IMG/VR virus record: IMGVR_UViG_3300020123_000219
Span: 24,199-88,198 of that record
Reading direction: 5' to 3' (one strand)
DNA: 64,000 nucleotides
Origin: a virus
The translations under genes were made by a program, and so were the position numbers. Under the pieces are notes generated by a model that worked only from the letters and a program-made list of their open reading frames with translations, was not told the DNA's origin and did not search any database. This document shows, one piece after another, positions 4,503 to 47,304 of the stretch. Every line of letters begins with the position of its first letter. Positions within the stretch are counted from its first letter, which is position 1.

Positions 4503-7500
4503 TCACCACGCCAGCGTGTTCAGGCCGTTGAGCAGCCCCAGCGTCGTGCTGCCCAGCTGCAGCGCCGCCGCCTCAGGCGCGTTGTCGATGATGCAGGTCA
4601 CGGACGCTGACACCTCGCCTTTCACCCCGAACGCCCAGCGGCGCTGGGTCTGCGTCACCCGCCCTGTGATGGAGATGACCGGGTTCCCCGCCCCGAACGG
4701 CCTGCGGTTCACCGTCACCAGGTCACCCACCGACACCCCGAGAACGAACCGCCACCGGAACGGGGACGCCTGCGCCGTCACGGTCACGTGGTTGAGCCGC
4801 AGGTCCGGCGCCGCGTACGTGTTCGCGAGCCAGTTCGCGAGGTCGAGCAGACCGGGGCCGTAGTTCAGCGCGACCCTGGTGTCGCCGTTCAGGTAGCCGG
4901 TGGCGAAGTTCGTGACGCAGCCGTACTGCTTCTGCGAGGCGTCGACCAGCGCCGTGTCGGCGGGCACGACATCGTCCTGCGTGTCGAGCTGGGTGAGCTG
5001 GATCTCGTTCTGGATGCGGGTCAGGTCGTAGTCGAACGAGATGTCCGGCTCGTAGTGGAACTCCCCGGCGAAAGATTCCTCTCCTAGCACCCACTGCACT
5101 GCCTGGTTCCAGGCAGCCTGCCTGGAAAGCGACACCAGGTCACCGGTCGGCGCAACGTAGAACATGCCGGGCAGCACGGCCTGCGCGATGTTGCTGACCG
5201 ACTGCGACGTTGGCTCTCCCGGTATGTCCTGGCAGGACACGACCGGGGTGACGTAAATGCCGCCCTGCTTGCCGATGGCCCTGCGGCCCGGCGCGTTGTC
5301 GCCGCCCTGCAGCAGCCGCTCGATCCGGTTCTGCGACGGCTCGCCCGCCAGCCCGGTCAGGCCGGCCTTGTAATGGGTCAGGATTCTCTGCTGCGGGAGC
5401 AGGAACGGGAACACCGCGAGCTGGCCGGTGCTGCCGTTGAAATTCAGGCTGCTGATCCCCGCCGCGTTCGAGGTCCCGTTCAGCCAGATGAACGAGAAGT
5501 CCTGCGGAAGGTGCGGAGATCCCCACGACCCGGACCCGGCCTGCTGGCCGTTCAGGTACACGGTCCACGCGGTCCTGTTGAACGTGATCACGACCTGGGT
5601 CATCGGCGGGGTGCCAGGCGTCAGCGTGTACACCGTCGACCCGATCGTGGTCAGGCTTGCCCCGTTATGCCAGGACATGTGCAGGCCCGCCGACAAGGTG
5701 TCGGCGTAAAAGCCGAAGATCTGCCCGGCCGTGTTCCCCACCGTCATCAGCGACGGCTGCTGGAGGCTGAACGGGCTCTGCATCTGGAACCAGAACTCGA
5801 TGGACACCCCGCCCGCTATCGGCGGGAACGTGCTGGTGGAAGCCACGAGGGTGTACCCGCTGTTCGCGCTGAGCGCGCCGACGTTCGTCAGCTGCCACAT
5901 GCCCTCGCCGACCGTGACCCGGAACGTCGGGTTGATCAGCAGCGTCGACGAGGTCCCGACCAGCGTGGTCGCGGGGGTGCTCCCGAACTGCTGCTGGATT
6001 CCGCCGGCCCCGTATTTCGACTGCGTCACCGTCAGCGGCACGTTGCTGCCCTGCGCGAGGTTCGCTGCCGCTGACGCTCCCTGCGCGTCCGCGCACGGCC
6101 AGTAGTGAGACGGGTTGTCGTGCAGGACCTCGGTGGACATGATCGGCTGCGGCTCGCAGTTCATCGCGAACCACGCGTCGGTGACCGTGGCCTCGGTGAA
6201 ACCCCGGTACGTCTCGTCCCACTGCTGCGGCAGCCGCTCGATGTTCCCCGAGTACGGCAGGTACCACGGGGTGGCCCACGGCGGTCCCAGCGGGTCGGGC
6301 TTCCACTGCCCCGTCACGGTCACGGTCGCGCCGTTCGCGGCGGTCCACGGCACCGCCGGGGGAAGCAGCAGCCAGCCGGGCACGGACGGGTACGGCGCGG
6401 ACGCAGCCCGGAACGCGGCGTTGACCGGCGGTATCCCGTTGGCCTGGACCGTGATCACCGCCTGCACCGTGCCTGACGGGGCGATGCCGGTGACGATCGC
6501 CAGCGTCGCAAGGGGGCTGGTCACCGGAGCGGACGCCGCTGTCCCGAGCGGGGTGCCGCTCCCGTTCTGGAACGTGATCACCAGCGACACTCCCGCTGCC
6601 CACGGCACCGAGCACGCGAGCCACGCCGGGAACGAGTACGTGGCCCCGGCGGTCGCTGGGATGGTCACCGATCCCTGCGCCTGAGGGTTCGCCGTGAAGC
6701 CGTTCCCGGTGAACGACACCTGCCACGACCCGCCGGTCCACGCGGTCCGCAGCCGTACCGGGGTGCCCGCGTTGATGCCGGCCAGCGACCCGGACCCGGG
6801 CGGCAGGAACGACCCGGTCGGGTTGTCGAACAGCAGCGTTCCCTCGCCCGTGGACAGCTGCGCCGTCTCGTACTGCCTGCCCTGCGTGATCTCCAGCGCC
6901 ATCGACGCGGTCGTCACCGGCACCCACGTCATGTTGTCGGGCATCGTCTGGAACCCGGAGCCGGGCGCCATCTCGAAGTACGTCACCGGCCAGTTCGACA
7001 GCGGCCTGGCCGGCGCGGCTGCCGCGCACAGCATCCCCCCGAGCCCGACCGCGAAGTTCACCGTGCCCGTCGAGTTCCACGTCGCCGAGCACGCCGTCGT
7101 GGTGTACTGCCATGCGGCCGAGCACTGGATGTCAGCGGAGTCGTCCACGCCGTTGCTGCCGGTCACGGTCGCCACCGGGGACCACAGGCCGCCGGGCGCG
7201 AGGGTGACCGTGTCGGTCAGGTTGTCCGACGCGGCCACGGTGACCGCGAACTGCTGGCTCACCGGGGCGGGCAGGCTCCCTGTGATGGCGGTGACTGAGT
7301 TCCCGAAGCCCGTGGCTGCCATGGTGTTCACCCACGGAGCCATGTTGGCCACGTTCCAGATGATCGCCGCGAATGCGGTGGTGTAGCTGTTCGGGGCCAC
7401 GAACACCGTGGTCTGCGGCGGCAGCCCGGAGTCTTTCGGCGGCGCGGTAACCCTGGCAGCCGGGGCACGCCACACGGAGCACCGGACCAGGCCCTGGTCC

Positions 7501-33254: not shown

Positions 33255-35075
33255 TTAGCCTGCGGTCCCCCACGGCCCGTCGGACATGTAGTCCTCCGGA
33301 ACCCCGTGCTCGGTGAAAGCCTTGCAGGTAGCCGGGCGGACCTCGGCCATGCGTGCCTTCAGCCGATCCGTCCCGCTCTCGGCGAGCCACGGCCACGGCA
33401 CGGTCTTGCCCGCCTGCAGCGCCGTGATCAGCCGGAACGCCGCGTCAGTCAGGCCGCCGAACGTGTGCCGGTTCGACCCGCCCGACGGCAGCGCCCCGGT
33501 CTTGTACCCGGCGAAGTTCCACATGTACACCGGGACGGTCTTCGGGATCAGGTCATCGATCAGGGTCTCGCTCATGCTGTTCGCCGCGATGCTGCGCCCG
33601 TACTGGATGCAGTTCGACGGAAGCCACCCCGGCCGGGTCTGCTCGTCAGTCAGGATCACGACCTCCGTGTGGTACGGCTTCAGGTGATCCCGCACCGCCG
33701 CCGGGATATCAGTCCCGCCCGGAGCGGGCTTCACGGAGAACTTCTCCATGATCTTCAGCACCGACTCGCCCTTCCCGAACGGCACCGGCTTCGAATGCGC
33801 CCAGAACTCCGCCAGGTCCGCGTTATCCGCCCGCACCGCCAGCGCGGCGCCGAACAGCGCAGCAGCATCCGCCCAGTCCATGTCCGAATGCTCCGTCATC
33901 TTGTACGCCCACATCGACGGGGACCGGTCCACCAGGACCAGCGGGCGCCGCAGCGGAGTCACGTTCGCCAGCGACGCGTCCAGCGCCTTCTCCAGCGGCC
34001 ACGCCCACCGCAGCGACGGCGCGTTCCTGTACGCAAGCCAGAACGCGAACGGGAACTCACCCGACCGCGCGACCGCCTCCGGGTCGGCCAGACGGGCAGC
34101 CACCTTCGCGGCGACCGCGTCCGAGATCCCGGCCCGGTCGAAGTTCGCGAGGTTCCGCCGCAGTGCCATGTACGGCATCGACGGGATCGCCGCCTCCCAC
34201 TTCCCGGCAGTCATCTCGCCATGCGACGCGGCCCGCTCCCACGTCATCCCCGCCTTCTTAGCCGACTCAGCCGTGATCTTCGACGGATCGCGCATCAGCC
34301 GCTTGTTCTGCCGCAGAACCCGCAGCACTGCCGGGATCTCCGCGTCCTGGTCGTGGCGCCGCGCGATCAGGTACTTCCACAGCACCGCACGGTACGCCGG
34401 GTCGCCCTCGCAGCCCGGAGCGTGATGCCCCAGCGCGCCGCACAGGTAGCACGTGCCGCGAGACGTGGCGTTGTACCGCGCGTTGACGATCTCGATCACG
34501 TCACCGAACCGGACCGCAGCCGACGGAGTATCGTACTTCGCGACCGCGTACTCCGTGTACAGGCGCGGCAGCGCATCGGCGATGCCGCGCTTCAGGCCCT
34601 TCGGCATGGTGTTCCGGCCGTACTTGGTGATCCAGTACGCGATCAGCTCGCCTGGCTCGTCACCGCGCTGCAGGACAGCGTCGGTCACCTTCCGGACCGT
34701 CCACTCCTGAGGGTCGGCGCGGTAACGTGCCTCTTCCTTGCGTGCCTGCGCGAACTCGGCTGCGCCGTACACCGGCCCGAGCCGCAGGTTCCCGCCATCG
34801 CGTGCCCGCAGGTAGTTCAGCAGGCCACCGGCCCAGTCAGGGTCCGTGCTGGCGTTCGCGCGCACCAGCTCCGTCCACCGGGCCACCCGGGCGTCCTTGC
34901 CCTCGTGCAGGGTCTTTTCGTCCGGCATGTAGCACGACGCCAGCACGTACAGCTCTGACTTCAGGTCCCGCAGGTAGCCCTGCGCGCCCAGTGCGGTCTT
35001 CGCGTCCGGCGCAGCCTCGGAGAAGACCGGCGACGACGGCAGGGTCGTGACCCTGCCCCTGTTGTACCGCGACAT
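33255..35075 (-). CDS. rsr: Ro60/Rsr TROVE-domain RNA-binding protein
   Basis: YLRARDGGNLR, RGDEPGE, KGLKRGIADA, YAVAKYD, MTWE, MPYMALRRNLANF, PFAFWLAY; vWA LVDRSPSM, GGTD, ILTDEQ. Confidence 0.92.
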   Translation of the reverse strand: MSRYNRGRVTTLPSSPVFSEAAPDAKTALGAQGYLRDLKSELYVLASCYMPDEKTLHEGKDARVARWTELVRANASTDPDWAGGLLNYLRARDGGNLRLGPVYGAAEFAQARKEEARYRADPQEWTVRKVTDAVLQRGDEPGELIAYWITKYGRNTMPKGLKRGIADALPRLYTEYAVAKYDTPSAAVRFGDVIEIVNARYNATSRGTCYLCGALGHHAPGCEGDPAYRAVLWKYLIARRHDQDAEIPAVLRVLRQNKRLMRDPSKITAESAKKAGMTWERAASHGEMTAGKWEAAIPSMPYMALRRNLANFDRAGISDAVAAKVAARLADPEAVARSGEFPFAFWLAYRNAPSLRWAWPLEKALDASLANVTPLRRPLVLVDRSPSMWAYKMTEHSDMDWADAAALFGAALAVRADNADLAEFWAHSKPVPFGKGESVLKIMEKFSVKPAPGGTDIPAAVRDHLKPYHTEVVILTDEQTRPGWLPSNCIQYGRSIAANSMSETLIDDLIPKTVPVYMWNFAGYKTGALPSGGSNRHTFGGLTDAAFRLITALQAGKTVPWPWLAESGTDRLKARMAEVRPATCKAFTEHGVPEDYMSDGPWGTAG

Positions 35076-35076
35076 G

Positions 35077-35109
35077 AAAAAGTCCTCCTCGCGTCAGCGG
35101 CGGGAGGAC
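35077..35109 (-). terminator. terminator-like hairpin that contains the Ro60 RBS
   Basis: GTCCTCC...GAGGAGGAC-TTTTT-C-ATG. Confidence 0.6.
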
Positions 35110-35114
35110 GTGCA

Positions 35115-35283
35115 TCAGGTGACCGCGCCCGACAAGAAATGCCGGAAGACATATCAAGGACGGGACTCGAACCCGCGACCTCTACCTGCGTAGGGTAGCG
35201 CTCTTCCAACTGAGCTACCAGCACCGAATGGTGTGCTGTTATTGAAGGAACTCCCGGCGGGCACCCCGGGCGCGGTCATCTGA
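35115..35283 (-). ncRNA. Y RNA (YrlA-like) with tRNA-like module
   Basis: Terminal stem with CCGGGGTGC/TTGTCGG; internal D, anticodon and T arms; adjacent to Ro60. Confidence 0.85.
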
Positions 35284-35291
35284 AGTTATGT

Positions 35292-35377
35292 CCCCTCACC
35301 GACAACAATCGGGAAGCGGCTGTGGTTTCCACTGCGAAGGTGAGAAGTAACCGCTGCCCAGCACCCCGGTGACGGGG
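35292..35377 (-). ncRNA. second, short Y RNA without tRNA module
   Basis: Same CCGGGGTGC, GTTNCTTC and TTGTCGG motifs in a closed stem. Confidence 0.75.
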
Positions 35378-35390
35378 TAGAACGAAAACT

Positions 35391-35419
35391 ACCCTACATT
35401 GGGGAGTGCCGTTATGCAA
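35391..35419 (-). promoter_or_regulatory. sigma70/HrdB-type promoter for the Y RNA-Ro60 unit
   Basis: TTGCAT-N17-TAGGGT just upstream of the short Y RNA. Confidence 0.65.
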
Positions 35420-35825
35420 GCCTTTTTCGGGTCATCGTCCCGCTGTGCCTTCCGGCAGCACCAGCACGGGTCCTCCGGCGTGCACCGCTGCATGCAGTCC
35501 GGGCATATCCCGTGCCGTTCCATGACCTTCCTTTCCCTTCACGGGCTTGTGGGCGCAGTCGCACCACGTGCCTCCCCGGCACTTCCCGTGCCGCTGCCTG
35601 CAGCACGCCTTGCAGATCACGCCCGCCCCAGGACCAGGCCGCCAAGACACGATGACTCGTGTACCCGCCGGTCAGCGGCAAGCGCAACGAAATCACGCTG
35701 CGAGTTCGCTGTCCTGTGCCACCCGCACCACCGCTCACCCTGGGTGCACAAAAGTATATACGGTATCTTAATAGGATTTCCGGTGACTTCACCAGCGACC
35801 GGTTCGCTGCTGTACTTTACGGCCA

Positions 35826-36401
35826 TCAGTAGAACTTCCCAACTCCCCGCTCAGTCCGGAGAACGGTCGTTGCTGAGCAACCGACGATCCTTCCCACCTC
35901 CGCCTGCGACAGGCCAGCAGCCCGCAGATTCAGTATTACAGCGGTGCGCTCGGCGAGCGCAGCCCGGTAACCCGCGCGTTCAGGAGCCCTTCTGCGCTCA
36001 GCGTACTCGCGCGCGCATGTCTTGCACTGGCCCCTGGCATTGTCGTTACCGTTCCCCCACGAGTGACCGCACGAGCGAAGCCGACTGCGACGCTCAGTAC
36101 CAGAGCGCTGCATGTTCTCCGCGTGGGTAACGGCCTCAAGATGTTCCGGCCAGAAACAAGCCCTAGACCGGCATCCGCGTTCCCAAACGTGGTCGATTTC
36201 CTTCCCTGCGGGGATCGGGCCGTTAAATCTCTCATACGCGACCCGGTGAACATACTCGGGGTGTTCACCCCAGCGACAGACACCGTATCCAGATGACTTG
36301 CCGAGCGGCCAGACCAGGCAGCCGTTAGCATCACGACCCAGCGCGCCAAGCCTGACGTACTCAGGGAAGCACAGTGCCGACATGACATCTTCCGGCGTCA
36401 T
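35826..36401 (-). CDS. HNH endonuclease with C-terminal HTH
   Basis: HRVAYE...EIDH...CRSRAC..PEHLEAVTHAEN; LSQAEVGRIVGCSATTV. Confidence 0.85.
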   Translation of the reverse strand: MTPEDVMSALCFPEYVRLGALGRDANGCLVWPLGKSSGYGVCRWGEHPEYVHRVAYERFNGPIPAGKEIDHVWERGCRSRACFWPEHLEAVTHAENMQRSGTERRSRLRSCGHSWGNGNDNARGQCKTCAREYAERRRAPERAGYRAALAERTAVILNLRAAGLSQAEVGRIVGCSATTVLRTERGVGKFY

Positions 36402-36433: not shown

Positions 36434-36832
36434 TCAGATCGTCGCGTGCTTGAATACCTTGGCGGCATCCTGGACACCGGTCTGCTCACGCAGCCTGTCC
36501 AGCTCCTCCTGCACCGGGGTCTGCCTCCGGTCGAACTCGCCGTTCCTCACCCCTGCGAGGAACGCATCCCACTCGGCAGCAGTGAACTCCAGCACCGGGC
36601 CGTCAGGGTTCTTCGAATCCCTCACGAGCACCTCGGTTCCCTCTTTCACAGGATGGTAGGACTCGGGGACGGCCGACGCCTCGACGCAGCCGCTCCGCTC
36701 GCTGAAGCTGGACTTGCCCCACCCGACTTCCACGCAGCCGCCGCCGTTCCCGCCGCTGAAGCTCGCCTTGTGCCACGAGACCTCAACGCAGGACTGGCTG
36801 GCGAACGAATATGACGACTTGAACCAGGTCAT
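36434..36832 (-). CDS. DUF397 protein with triplicated N-terminal motif
   Basis: WxKxSxS...CVE three times, then VRDSKNPDGPVLEFTAAEWDAFLAGV. Confidence 0.9.
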   Translation of the reverse strand: MTWFKSSYSFASQSCVEVSWHKASFSGGNGGGCVEVGWGKSSFSERSGCVEASAVPESYHPVKEGTEVLVRDSKNPDGPVLEFTAAEWDAFLAGVRNGEFDRRQTPVQEELDRLREQTGVQDAAKVFKHATI

Positions 36833-36845
36833 GGGCGTTTCCTTT

Positions 36846-37442
36846 TCATCGGACTCGGAAGTATTCCGTCGGGTGCCACCACTGGTCATAGTGGATGACG
36901 CTGACAGGGGAACCGGAATCGTGCGCCCCCAGAGTGTACCCGGAGCGGTCGTACAGCTCCACGTGCCCGGACCCGTAGAACGCGAGATCGCCTTTCCTCG
37001 GGTGGTAGACGCGGACCAGCTGCCGGCTGCCCAGCATCTCGTACGTCGTCCGGGGCAGGTAAACCCCGGCGTGCCGGTAGGCCATCATCACCAGCCCCGA
37101 GCAGTCGTAACCGTCGTGGCACGGCCCGGTGCCGCCCCACACGTACCAGCAGCCCCTCTGGGACATCGCCCACCTGTAGGCGATCAGCCGCCGGGACGTA
37201 CCCGACCGGACCGGGATCAGGTCACCGTGCGCCTTCCCCGAACGGGTAACCAGCACGCGTGCGTCCCGCGCCGCCGGAGCTGCAGGGACAGCAGGAGCAG
37301 CCGGCGCGGCGAACCTGGCTGCTTTCGACAGGGCAGCGGGCTGGGCGAACGCGGACGTGCCGCGCGGAGTAGCCAGCAGAACCCCCGCCAGGATGAAGGA
37401 CGCCGCGCCGAGCCACGCAGCCGTGATCTTCGCGCGCCTCAT
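36846..37442 (-). CDS. secreted NlpC/P60 peptidoglycan peptidase
   Basis: Signal peptide; YVWGGTGP...YDCSGL...LPRT...GHV. Confidence 0.9.
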   Translation of the reverse strand: MRRAKITAAWLGAASFILAGVLLATPRGTSAFAQPAALSKAARFAAPAAPAVPAAPAARDARVLVTRSGKAHGDLIPVRSGTSRRLIAYRWAMSQRGCWYVWGGTGPCHDGYDCSGLVMMAYRHAGVYLPRTTYEMLGSRQLVRVYHPRKGDLAFYGSGHVELYDRSGYTLGAHDSGSPVSVIHYDQWWHPTEYFRVR

Positions 37443-46978: not shown

Positions 46979-47230
46979 GCGATAATCGCGATAACGGCGC
47001 CGACATCAGCAGCAGCGAACACAATCCACAGCAGCGCCGCGATCAGCTGCGCTCTCAGGTACGACCCGTTCTCGCCCTCACGGCGATCAGAGTACGAACA
47101 GGTGCTCCATATAGCGAAAAACACCGACGCGAAAGCCAGGAGCATGATCAGGACAGCCTGCATCACGCCCAGGTCAACCGGAATCCCGTGCTCATGCACC
47201 ACAACGTCATTCCTTTCCCATTCCGTACCG

Positions 47231-47304
47231 TGCGCCCGGAGGGACTCGAACCCCCAATCGCCTGTTCCGTAGACAGGTGCCCTAGTCCATTGGGCCACAG
47301 GCGC
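47231..47304 (-). tRNA. tRNA-Arg(ACG)
   Basis: Loop CTACGGA. Confidence 0.9.

What the first reader, a model, noticed from the sequence alone, without database searches (positions are those of the whole stretch)
35115..35283. Y RNA containing a complete four-arm permuted tRNA, unlike canonical YrlA
Seen: inside the Ro-binding stem the order is CAGCAC-ACCA-TTCG-GTGCTGG (acceptor 3' strand with ACCA joined by TTCG to the 5' strand), D arm TAGCTCAGTTGGAAGAGC, anticodon arm CTACC-CTACGCA-GGTAG, AGGTC, T arm GCGGG-TTCGAGT-CCCGT-C. It is a whole tRNA opened between about nt 66 and 67. Established: YrlA modules run T arm, closed acceptor, D arm, with the Ro stem replacing the anticodon arm. Inference: this is an independent tRNA capture that keeps an exposed ACG anticodon loop and an internal CCA, so it could act as bait for anticodon nucleases or tRNA-binding enzymes while tethered to Ro60.
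Basis: partly seen in the sequence, partly recalled or inferred. Interest (0 to 1): 0.85.

Follow-up and report, generated by a model that had tools for sequence, protein, structure and literature searches.

The report
Phage Y RNA with re-cut tRNA
A small non-coding RNA just upstream of a phage's Ro60 gene holds a complete tRNA look-alike whose strands are joined in an unusual order and which carries its own CCA end; the same design recurs in four other phage contigs, so it looks like a real, apparently undescribed variant of the known tRNA-mimicking Y RNAs.

Summary
On the minus strand at 35115-35283, 39 nt upstream of a TROVE/Ro60 gene, a long terminal stem encloses these parts in order: acceptor 3' strand, ACCA, a 4-nt spacer, acceptor 5' strand, D arm, a 5-bp/7-nt "anticodon" arm, AGGUC, T arm and C66. 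This is a tRNA opened between nt 66 and 67.

It does not match Rfam YrlA (RF02553). Only out-of-order T and D scraps match. The tRNA model matches it, but with a broken acceptor stem.

The design recurs. I found three more copies upstream of Ro60 genes (L098, L374, L378) and one in a Ro-less phage fragment (L354).
- In the four Ro-linked copies, all 84 base-pair cells pair, and 5 of 6 acceptor pairs covary.
- NCCA is kept in all five.
- A 97%-identical soil strain differs at 8 positions, all unpaired.

The flanks share the Y RNA scaffold of neighbouring minimal and canonical Y RNAs. I therefore read it as a new architectural subclass of Y RNA, not an independent capture.

The anticodon-bait idea is not a family trait: three of the four Ro-linked copies have 4-6-nt loops in that arm.

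The likely mechanism, which is inferred, is that Ro60 binds the RNA, RNase P cuts at G1, and a two-piece tRNA mimic with a free CCA end results.

The scan also noted this stretch from an overlapping window (e1-6083557).

The parts
35115..35283 (-). Whole Y RNA (169 nt), here called the permuted-tRNA type
   Evidence: Fold has z -4.5. Helix map. CM R2 scores 86.8 bits.
35267..35283 (-). P1 terminal stem, 5' strand (UCAG-A-UGACCGCGCCCG)
   Evidence: Pairs with 35115-35131 in the MFE fold. An almost identical stem occurs in the Ro-proximal Y RNA of L017.
35115..35131 (-). P1 terminal stem, 3' strand
35258..35266 (-). 5' side of the internal loop (GGGUGCCCG); presumed Ro60-binding motif
   Evidence: GUGC is shared with the window's upstream Y RNA, L017, L374 (CCCGAAGUGCAGG) and L098/L378 (GGUGCGCAGG). 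Ro60 binding itself is inferred.
35132..35141 (-). 3' side of the internal loop (CAUUUCUUGU), followed by CGGG
   Evidence: The UUGUCGGG motif is shared with L017, L374 and the window's upstream Y RNA. It is the analogue of UUGAUCUCGG in other phages.
35251..35257 (-). P2 inner stem, 5' strand (CCGGGAG); pairs with 35142-35148 (CUUCCGG)
   Evidence: Present in the MFE fold. L098 (GGUUCGG/CCGGACC) and L354 (AGACUCC/GGAGUCU) have 7-bp stems of different sequence at the same place.
35142..35148 (-). P2 inner stem, 3' strand
35239..35250 (-). 5' linker UUCCUUCAAUAA; counterpart of the YrlA YUAY/UACUUC motif
   Evidence: Compare L098 AGUUCUUCAAU, L378 GGGUACUUC and L374 GGUUACUUC, each directly before the acceptor 3' strand.
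35233..35238 (-). Acceptor 3' strand (nt 67-72)
   Evidence: 6/6 pairs with 35219-35224. 5 of 6 pairs covary across members.
35229..35232 (-). Encoded discriminator plus CCA (ACCA)
   Evidence: NCCA is present in all five members. In the 97% strain variant CCA is unchanged, while the discriminator and 3 of 4 spacer bases change.
35225..35228 (-). Spacer UUCG between CCA and G1. The predicted RNase P site lies between 35225 and 35224.
   Evidence: Spacers are 4-8 nt and not conserved. RNase P cutting is inferred from M. smegmatis YrlA (PMC4201824).
35218..35224 (-). Acceptor 5' strand (nt 1-7)
35200..35217 (-). U8, A9 and the D arm
   Evidence: Rfam tRNA alignment. Invariant in all members.
35182..35198 (-). 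Arm in the anticodon position: 5 bp with 7-nt loop CUACGCA (ACG, with C at position 37)
   Evidence: All 5 pairs covary across members, but loop length runs from 4 to 7 nt.
35160..35181 (-). Variable loop AGGUC and the T arm
35159..35159 (-). C66, which pairs with G7. The chain leaves the tRNA module after it.
   Evidence: The 7:66 pair is G-C in four members and A-U in L354.
35149..35158 (-). 3' linker CUUGAUAUGU
35077..35109 (-). Terminator-like hairpin plus U5. Its 3' arm holds the AGGAGG Shine-Dalgarno of the Ro60 gene.
   Evidence: Fold -17.5 kcal/mol, z -3.1.
33255..35075 (-). Ro60/TROVE gene (606 aa)
   Evidence: Pfam TROVE, E 2e-14. 36-41% identity to the 'Ro-like RNA binding protein' of actinophages.
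35292..35376 (-). Upstream minimal Y RNA in tandem (same GUGC/UUGUCGG loop, apical GGUUACUUC hairpin, no tRNA arms)
   Evidence: Fold; sequence.

Best explanation
This is a Y RNA, the non-coding partner of the phage's Ro60 protein. It belongs to an architectural subclass that I could not find described.

Shown:
- A terminal stem and internal loop, homologous to those of neighbouring Y RNAs, enclose a full L-shape-competent tRNA module.
- The chain enters that module at nt 67 and leaves at nt 66. The order is therefore acceptor 3' strand, NCCA, a short spacer, acceptor 5' strand, D arm, an arm in the anticodon position, T arm.
- Canonical YrlA is instead opened at the anticodon loop and has no anticodon arm and no CCA.

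Inferred:
- Ro60 binds the GUGC/UUGUCGG internal loop.
- RNase P cuts 5' of G1 (between 35225 and 35224), and exonucleases trim the 4-nt spacer back to the encoded CCA.
- The product is a two-piece RNA, held together by P1, P2 and the acceptor stem, that presents a true tRNA-like 5'-P/CCA-3' end while tethered to Ro60.
- The module then either protects the RNA from 3' exonucleases or recruits a tRNA-end-recognising factor to Ro60. The arm in the anticodon position is structural, not a decoding element.
For: Position and strand: the RNA lies 39 nt upstream of a TROVE gene, after a second, minimal Y RNA.

Scaffold homology: P1, the GUGC loop, P2 and the UUCYUUC loop start match L017's minimal Y RNA and the Y RNAs of L098, L374 and L378.

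Module:
- Rfam tRNA scores 45.6 bits with a broken colinear acceptor.
- All tertiary-pair nucleotides are present: U8, A14, G15:C48, G18G19, U54U55C56, A58 (read).

Recurrence:
- CM R2 scores L378 92.7, L374 91.4, L098 89.4, window 86.8 and the untrained L354 66.1 bits. The best ordinary tRNA scores 58.2 bits.
- In L098, L374 and L378 the element stands in the same array as a canonical YrlA-like unit.

Covariation:
- In the four Ro-linked members, all 84 cells pair and 11 of 21 pairs change on both sides. The acceptor hairpin accounts for 5 of 6. Slid controls pair 42-51%.
- The upstream strand pairs 6-7/7 in all five members, against 2-4/7 for the colinear strand.

Selection:
- A 97% strain variant in two soil runs has 8 changes inside the RNA, all at unpaired positions (81 of 169 nt are unpaired, so chance is about 0.003).
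- In that variant CCA is kept, while the discriminator and 3 of 4 spacer bases change.
- Only 4 of the phage's 35 tRNA genes encode CCA.

Precedent for processing: M. smegmatis YrlA, with a 7-bp acceptor stem, is cut by RNase P and carries CCA in vivo (PMC4201824).
Against: - No RNA data exist; no RNA run holds the stretch.
- Ro60 binding is inferred from position and homology only. The published GNCGAAN0-1G/CGAA motif is absent from this RNA.
- The MFE fold (-80.1 kcal/mol) keeps P1, P2, the acceptor hairpin and the D arm but re-pairs the anticodon/T region. The full cloverleaf model scores only -62.8 kcal/mol.
- The structural alignments were fitted to the model, and there are only 4-5 members.
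- The base at -1 is G here and C in L098, neither of which is ideal for RNase P. Position +1 is C or U in L378 and L374.
- A CCA joined to G1 by only 4 nt may not be free to meet RNase P.
- L354 has no Ro60 gene in its 13-kb fragment, so the module may not be tied to Ro60 everywhere.
Confidence: 0.62

Rival explanations
1. Same Y RNA, but never cleaved. The acceptor hairpin stays closed, as in most YrlA RNAs, and the looped NCCA is a protein or RNA contact rather than a future 3' end.
For: Most YrlAs are thought to remain closed (bioRxiv 10.1101/312249). The spacer is only 4 nt here. The -1 base is G or C in two members.
Against: NCCA sits exactly after a 6-7-bp acceptor stem in all five members, and CCA is kept while its neighbours drift. 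The 7-bp acceptor plus T stem is the RNase P determinant that sets the cleaved M. smegmatis YrlA apart.
Confidence: 0.2
2. One reading: a tethered decoy whose exposed ACG anticodon loop, or CCA end, baits host anticodon nucleases or other tRNA-targeting defence toxins.
For: The window copy has a 7-nt loop with U33 and ACG, and ACG is unchanged in the 97% variant. L354 has a near-canonical GAA loop. The phage carries 35 tRNAs, which fits pressure on the tRNA pool.
Against: Three of the four Ro-linked members have 4-, 5- or 6-nt loops that cannot mimic an anticodon loop. Position 37 is a pyrimidine here. A20, an Arg identity element by general knowledge, is U in the close variant. No nuclease partner is known.
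Confidence: 0.1
3. A genuine circularly permuted tRNA-Arg(ACG) gene. The enclosing stem is excised, nt 66 and 67 are ligated, and the acceptor loop is opened to give a decoding tRNA.
For: The topology resembles the permuted tRNA genes of red algae that Wang et al. discuss. RNA ligase genes lie beside Ro60 in some relatives, for example Kela.
Against: A normal tRNA-Arg(ACG) already exists at 47230-47304. C37 is atypical. Three relatives have no anticodon loop at all. No bulge-helix-bulge motif or splicing endonuclease is known in bacteria. The flanks are conserved as a Y RNA scaffold rather than as a disposable leader.
Confidence: 0.04
4. A decayed remnant of two adjacent tRNA genes (the 3' end of one plus a truncated second) with no function of its own.
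For: Tandem duplicate tRNAs automatically give an upstream strand complementary to the next 5' strand. Such pairs score up to 64 bits with R2.
Against: All 8 strain differences avoid the stems. Five contigs keep the layout with compensatory changes and a closing stem. The colinear 3' strand is missing in all five, not merely decayed in one.
Confidence: 0.03

Closest known systems
YrlA (Rfam RF02553; Chen et al. 2014, PMC4201824; Wang et al. 2018, bioRxiv 10.1101/312249)
   Same: - Encoded just upstream of Ro60 on the same strand.
- A 5'/3' stem with a Ro-type internal loop.
- The UACUUC-type motif.
- tRNA-like D and T arms and an acceptor hairpin.
- Co-occurs with it in the same arrays in L098, L374 and L378.
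   Different: - YrlA runs V-T-AS-D, and the Ro stem replaces the anticodon arm. Here the order is AS-D-AC-T, and the Ro stem leaves at nt 66/67.
- YrlA has no anticodon arm and usually no CCA. Here both are present.
- There is no match to RF02553.
Mycobacterium smegmatis YrlA (Chen et al. 2014)
   Same: A 7-bp acceptor stem. It is cut by RNase P and ends in CCA, which gives a two-piece Ro-bound RNA. That is the fate proposed here.
   Different: It has the canonical V-T-AS-D order, and CA is added after nibbling. Here the whole NCCA is encoded.
Deinococcus radiodurans Yrn1 (Chen et al. 2014)
   Same: The arms run in tRNA order: D-like, an 'anticodon arm' with a 5-bp stem and 6-nt loop, then T, between the strands of the Ro stem.
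   Different: As described, Yrn1 has no separate acceptor hairpin, no CCA and only a partial D arm. I did not have its sequence to test.
Minimal Y RNAs (YrlB-like) of the same phages, e.g. L017:2368-2470 and window 35292-35376
   Same: Same P1, GUGC/UUGUCGG loop, P2 and loop start. The window RNA looks like one of these with a tRNA module in its apical loop.
   Different: They have no tRNA arms.
Circularly permuted tRNA genes of red algae and two-piece (permuted) tmRNA genes
   Same: The acceptor 3' strand with CCA is encoded upstream of the 5' strand, and a loop between them must be opened. For the permuted tRNA genes. For two-piece tmRNA I rely on my own knowledge.
   Different: Those mature into a decoding tRNA or a working tmRNA. 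Here the break at 66/67 is bridged by a Ro60-binding stem, and most members lack an anticodon loop.

Membership tests
Y RNA (Ro60 partner, broad sense) | Encoded next to a Ro60/TROVE gene, on the same strand | tested here: met
   The TROVE gene at 33255-35075(-) starts 39 nt downstream. The same holds for L098, L374 and L378.
Y RNA (Ro60 partner, broad sense) | 5' and 3' ends pair into a stem with a conserved internal loop or bulge that Ro60 binds | tested here: inconclusive
   The stem and a loop conserved among related phage Y RNAs are present. The published GNCGAAN0-1G/CGAA motif is absent, and binding was not tested.
Y RNA (Ro60 partner, broad sense) | Physically bound by Ro60 | not testable with these tools
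   Needs co-IP or EMSA.
YrlA (RF02553) | Match to the covariance model at or above 69 bits | tested here: not met
   No hit at E<=10 over 34900-35500. The own-genome search gives only T (model 31-47) and D (63-81) scraps of 10.5 and 8.7 bits, in reversed order.
YrlA (RF02553) | Module order V - T - closed acceptor - D, with the Ro stem in place of the anticodon arm | tested here: not met
   The order here is acceptor - D - anticodon-position arm - T.
YrlA (RF02553) | tRNA-like D and T arms with conserved tertiary-pair nucleotides | tested here: met
   Rfam tRNA alignment. The D arm is invariant across members.
tRNA (RF00005) | Covariance model score at or above 29 bits | tested here: met
   45.6 bits. 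In L098 and L378 only model positions 6-65 match.
tRNA (RF00005) | 7-bp acceptor stem formed by the 5' end and the strand that follows the T arm | tested here: not met
   4/7 pairs here and 2-4/7 in the other members. ARAGORN makes no call.
tRNA (RF00005) | 7-nt anticodon loop with U33 and a purine at 37 | tested here: not met
   The loop CUACGCA has C37 (G in a strain variant). Relatives have 4-6-nt loops.
Circularly permuted tRNA gene | 3' half upstream of 5' half, with termini forming a processing motif that allows ligation to a mature tRNA | tested here: inconclusive
   The strand order fits, but only nt 67-76 lie upstream. No bulge-helix-bulge motif is seen, and no mature product could be tested.

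The most novel reading that the evidence does not exclude
Some actinophages make a two-piece, CCA-ended, full-size tRNA mimic that stays tethered to Ro60. This acceptor end is functional. It could be charged, or it could be the target or sensor of host toxins that modify or cut tRNA ends or anticodon loops. Either way it would couple the state of the host's tRNA-directed defence to a Ro60 RNA-surveillance or decay machine.
Probability: 0.15. Interest if true: 0.85.

Novelty: new variant of a known kind. Interest (0 to 1): 0.62.

Why it matters
Y RNAs tether Ro60 to effectors, and what the tRNA-like module of bacterial and phage Y RNAs does is still open.

This second, independent way of wiring a tRNA fold to the Ro60-binding stem keeps the acceptor end, an encoded CCA and the elbow. 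It lets the anticodon loop decay. That points to the acceptor/T half and its 3' end as the functional part, and it yields a directly testable prediction: RNase P cleavage into a two-piece RNA.

The subclass also bears on the proposed dimeric-tRNA origin of YrlA. It keeps the part of the second tRNA that canonical YrlA lost.

There is a practical gain too. It explains tRNA-model hits without an acceptor stem next to Ro60 genes, and it shows that several annotated 'tRNA' genes upstream of phage Ro60 genes are really pieces of Y RNAs.

Tried and rejected
- Megablast of the locus against cultured phages found no match.
- Blastn of the RNA against cultured phages found only ordinary tRNAs, for example tRNA-Gly(gcc) of cluster C mycobacteriophages inside a normal tRNA array.
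The contigs of the 95%- and 81%-identical Ro60 relatives (P0001, P0002) could therefore not be read.
- No RNA holder is listed among public runs, so there is no expression or end data.
- Recent capture from the phage's own tRNAs is rejected. The best identity is about 52 of 73, and the best match is not the Arg(ACG) gene.
- IMG/VR pattern scans keyed on the GAGUUC..UUCAA linker or on ACCA plus the D and T arms found only the L098 contig again.
A specific scan for L354 relatives found none.
All 120 loci were ordinary tandem tRNAs with intact acceptors.
- R2 found nothing at E<=1e-12 in 151 Streptomycetaceae genomes. This is a weak test, because few candidates were scored per genome.
- Tandem duplicate tRNAs reach 62-64 bits with R2. 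Scores alone near that level do not define membership, so the failed colinear acceptor must also be checked.
- No protein gene other than Ro60 is shared between the L098 contig and the window.
- MAFFT could not align the acceptor hairpins. Model-guided alignments were used instead, and these lean towards the structure.

Full report
**What is there**

The feature lies on the minus strand. Reading 35283 down to 35115 gives, in order:
- A terminal stem P1: UCAG-A-UGACCGCGCCCG, pairing with CGGGCGCGGUCA-C-CUGA.
- An internal loop: 5' GGGUGCCCG, 3' CAUUUCUUGU.
- A 7-bp inner stem P2: CCGGGAG/CUUCCGG.
- A 12-nt linker, UUCCUUCAAUAA.
- The tRNA module: CAGCAC, ACCA, UUCG, GUGCUGG, the D arm, CUACC-CUACGCA-GGUAG, AGGUC, the T arm and one C.
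- A 10-nt linker back to P2.

The supporting scans:
- The Rfam tRNA model matches 35152-35224 colinearly at 45.6 bits, but it marks three acceptor pairs as broken.
- ARAGORN, which finds 35 tRNAs elsewhere in the window, does not call it.
- The upstream strand pairs 6/7 with GUGCUGG, while the colinear strand pairs 4/7. The C that follows the T stem pairs with G7, so the chain is opened between nt 66 and 67.
- The 191-nt fold has z = -4.5 and recovers P1, P2, the acceptor hairpin and the D arm.
- The anticodon/T region is re-paired in the MFE structure. The full cloverleaf model is 17 kcal/mol worse than the MFE. That is common for tRNAs, but it is a caveat.

**Context**

The window is part of an 88-kb IMG/VR virus record with a 35-tRNA array.
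- A 606-aa TROVE/Ro60 gene starts 39 nt downstream of the RNA (Pfam E 2e-14). It is 36-41% identical to the 'Ro-like RNA binding protein' of Streptomyces, Gordonia and Arthrobacter phages.
- Between the RNA and the gene is a -17.5 kcal/mol hairpin with a U5 tail. Its 3' arm holds the gene's AGGAGG.
- Upstream, at 35292-35376, is a second, minimal Y-type RNA with the same internal-loop motifs.
- No canonical YrlA exists anywhere in the record. RF02553 gives only di-tRNA artefacts, plus T-arm and D-arm scraps of this element in reversed order.

**Relatives**

Related phages carry tandem arrays of Y RNAs upstream of Ro60. These include canonical YrlA-like units (V-T-AS-D, 25-57 bits against RF02553) and minimal units with only the GGUUACUUC hairpin.

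The Ro-proximal RNA of L017 has almost the same P1, loop motifs and P2 as the window RNA, but only a 21-nt apical loop. The window RNA therefore looks like that scaffold with a tRNA module in its apical loop.

A rough census of 87 Y units in 47 loci gave about 44 canonical, 34 minimal, 8 with a T arm only, and one with the D arm before the T arm (L098).

**The design recurs**

I found the other members in three ways:
- A structural scan found L098:1993-2079.
- Model R1, built from the window alone, then found L378:2050-2131 and L374:2170-2253 among 78 further Ro60 loci.
- A pattern scan found L354:7097-7179 in a 13-kb AT-rich phage fragment. That fragment has a tRNA array, a ROOL RNA and a group I intron, but no TROVE gene.

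Model R2, built from the four Ro-linked members, separates members from ordinary tRNAs:

| Sequence | R2 bits |
|---|---|
| L378 | 92.7 |
| L374 | 91.4 |
| L098 | 89.4 |
| window | 86.8 |
| L354 (untrained) | 66.1 |
| best ordinary tRNA | 58.2 |

About 165 distinct Ro60 loci were surveyed, and four carry this type. In L098, L374 and L378 it stands in one array with a canonical YrlA-like unit, so it is a distinct paralogous class rather than a replacement.

**Evidence for the structure and for selection**

In the four Ro-linked members, all 84 base-pair cells pair and 11 of 21 pairs change on both sides. That covers 5 of 6 acceptor-hairpin pairs and all 5 pairs of the anticodon-position stem. 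Slid controls pair only 42-51%.

With L354 added, the 7:66 pair changes from G-C to A-U.

These alignments were fitted to the model and are small. The counts are therefore supportive, not final.

Independent support comes from a 97%-identical strain in two soil runs. It spans the whole stretch and differs at 8 positions inside the RNA:
- T-loop position 59
- position 37 (C to G)
- position 20 (A to U)
- three of the four spacer bases
- the discriminator (A to G)
- one linker base

All eight lie at unpaired positions of the model. Since 81 of 169 nt are unpaired, the chance of this is about 0.003. CCA and ACG are untouched.

NCCA follows the acceptor 3' strand in all five members. Only 4 of the phage's 35 tRNA genes encode CCA.

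**What varies**

The arm in the anticodon position differs between members:

| Member | Stem | Loop |
|---|---|---|
| window | 5 bp | 7 nt, CUACGCA |
| L098 | 7 bp | 6 nt, CUUCGC |
| L378 | 5 bp | 5 nt, CUGAG |
| L374 | 6 bp | GGAA tetraloop |
| L354 | 5 bp | 7 nt, GUGAAAA |

The arm is kept, but an anticodon loop is not. That argues against anticodon bait as the family's function.

The module is also no closer to any of the phage's own tRNAs than tRNAs are to each other. Together with the shared scaffold motifs, this argues against an independent capture.

**Mechanism**

Shown: the architecture, its linkage to Ro60 genes, and the conservation of the stems and of CCA.

Inferred:
- Ro60 binds the GUGC/UUGUCGG loop. 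This loop resembles the GGUCCGA/UUGACU site of animal Y RNAs and the conserved loop of the other phage Y RNAs.
- RNase P cuts 5' of nt 1, as it does in M. smegmatis YrlA, the one YrlA with a 7-bp acceptor stem (PMC4201824).
- The spacer is trimmed to the encoded CCA.
- The two pieces stay together through P1, P2 and the acceptor stem.

The Ro stem leaves at the nick between the acceptor and T helices. This leaves the elbow, the acceptor end and the anticodon-position arm free. In canonical YrlA the Ro stem occupies the anticodon end instead (bioRxiv 10.1101/312249).

What the CCA-ended module then does is open. It could protect against exonucleases, as Chen et al. suggested. It could recruit a tRNA-end enzyme or PNPase. 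It could act as a decoy.

**Comparison and novelty**

The closest known forms are these:
- YrlA: same scaffold and arms, different permutation, and the model match fails.
- M. smegmatis YrlA: the same proposed processing.
- D. radiodurans Yrn1: arms in tRNA order with a 6-nt-loop 'anticodon arm', but no acceptor hairpin or CCA as described.

Wang et al. proposed that YrlA arose from a dimeric tRNA. The present class fits that idea: it could be a derivative that kept the second tRNA's D, anticodon and T arms.

Full-text searches for Y RNA with phage, tRNA-like or permuted tRNA terms found no description of this arrangement. I rate it a new variant of a known kind.

Noticed in passing
L354:7068-7212 (-), IMGVR_UViG_3300021426_000490: A fifth permuted tRNA-like RNA, made of UUUAUUC-GCCA-UUAAUU-GAAUGAA, a D arm, a near-canonical GAA anticodon loop and a T arm, enclosed by the AGACUCC/GGAGUCU stem. 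It sits in an AT-rich phage fragment with a tRNA array, a ROOL RNA (4842-5441) and a group I intron. No TROVE gene is present in the 13 kb. It may mean the module is not restricted to Ro60 loci.
   Followed up: partly
L002:1245-1335, L003:1204-1275, L004:1269-1343: GenBank 'tRNA' features upstream of Ro60 in Streptomyces phages Frankenweenie (tRNA-Pro, 91 nt) and GiJojo (tRNA-Arg cct) and Gordonia phage VanLee (tRNA-Arg tct) overlap canonical YrlA-like units. They score below the Rfam tRNA threshold (26.9 bits, 24.1 bits, or no hit). They are probably Y RNA pieces in which the V hairpin was read as an anticodon arm.
   Followed up: partly
window 35077-35109 (-): The terminator-like hairpin between the Y RNAs and the Ro60 start codon has the gene's AGGAGG in its 3' arm. 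Read-through transcripts would therefore have a sequestered ribosome-binding site, which may couple Y RNA and Ro60 expression.
   Followed up: no
window 35292-35376 (-): A minimal Y RNA lies in tandem, with the same GUGC/UUGUCGG loop and a GGUUACUUC apical hairpin. A TTGCAT-N17-TAGGGT promoter-like site precedes it at about 35391-35419. The sigma-70 scan did not score that site.
   Followed up: partly
L124:3611-3692 (-), L125:7702-7783, L128:2227-2306, L129:896-975: tRNA-like genes whose acceptor stem seems to be extended by a further ~9-bp helix. For example, UCUGCGAGG precedes the acceptor and CCUCGCAGA follows it. Seen in four IMG/VR contigs and not examined further.
   Followed up: no
window 35826-36401 (-) and 36434-36889 (-): An HNH endonuclease with an HTH tail and a DUF397 protein lie directly upstream of the Y RNA/Ro60 cassette. 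The cassette itself sits among virion and lysis-type genes (portal, MuF-NUDIX, NlpC/P60, transglycosylase). This hints that the cassette is a mobile insertion.
   Followed up: no
L001:729-1481: In Streptomyces phage Kela an RNA ligase gene lies directly upstream of the Ro-like gene, and a YrlA-like hit lies further upstream at 531-601. Ro60 is thus linked with RNA repair in a relative.
   Followed up: no
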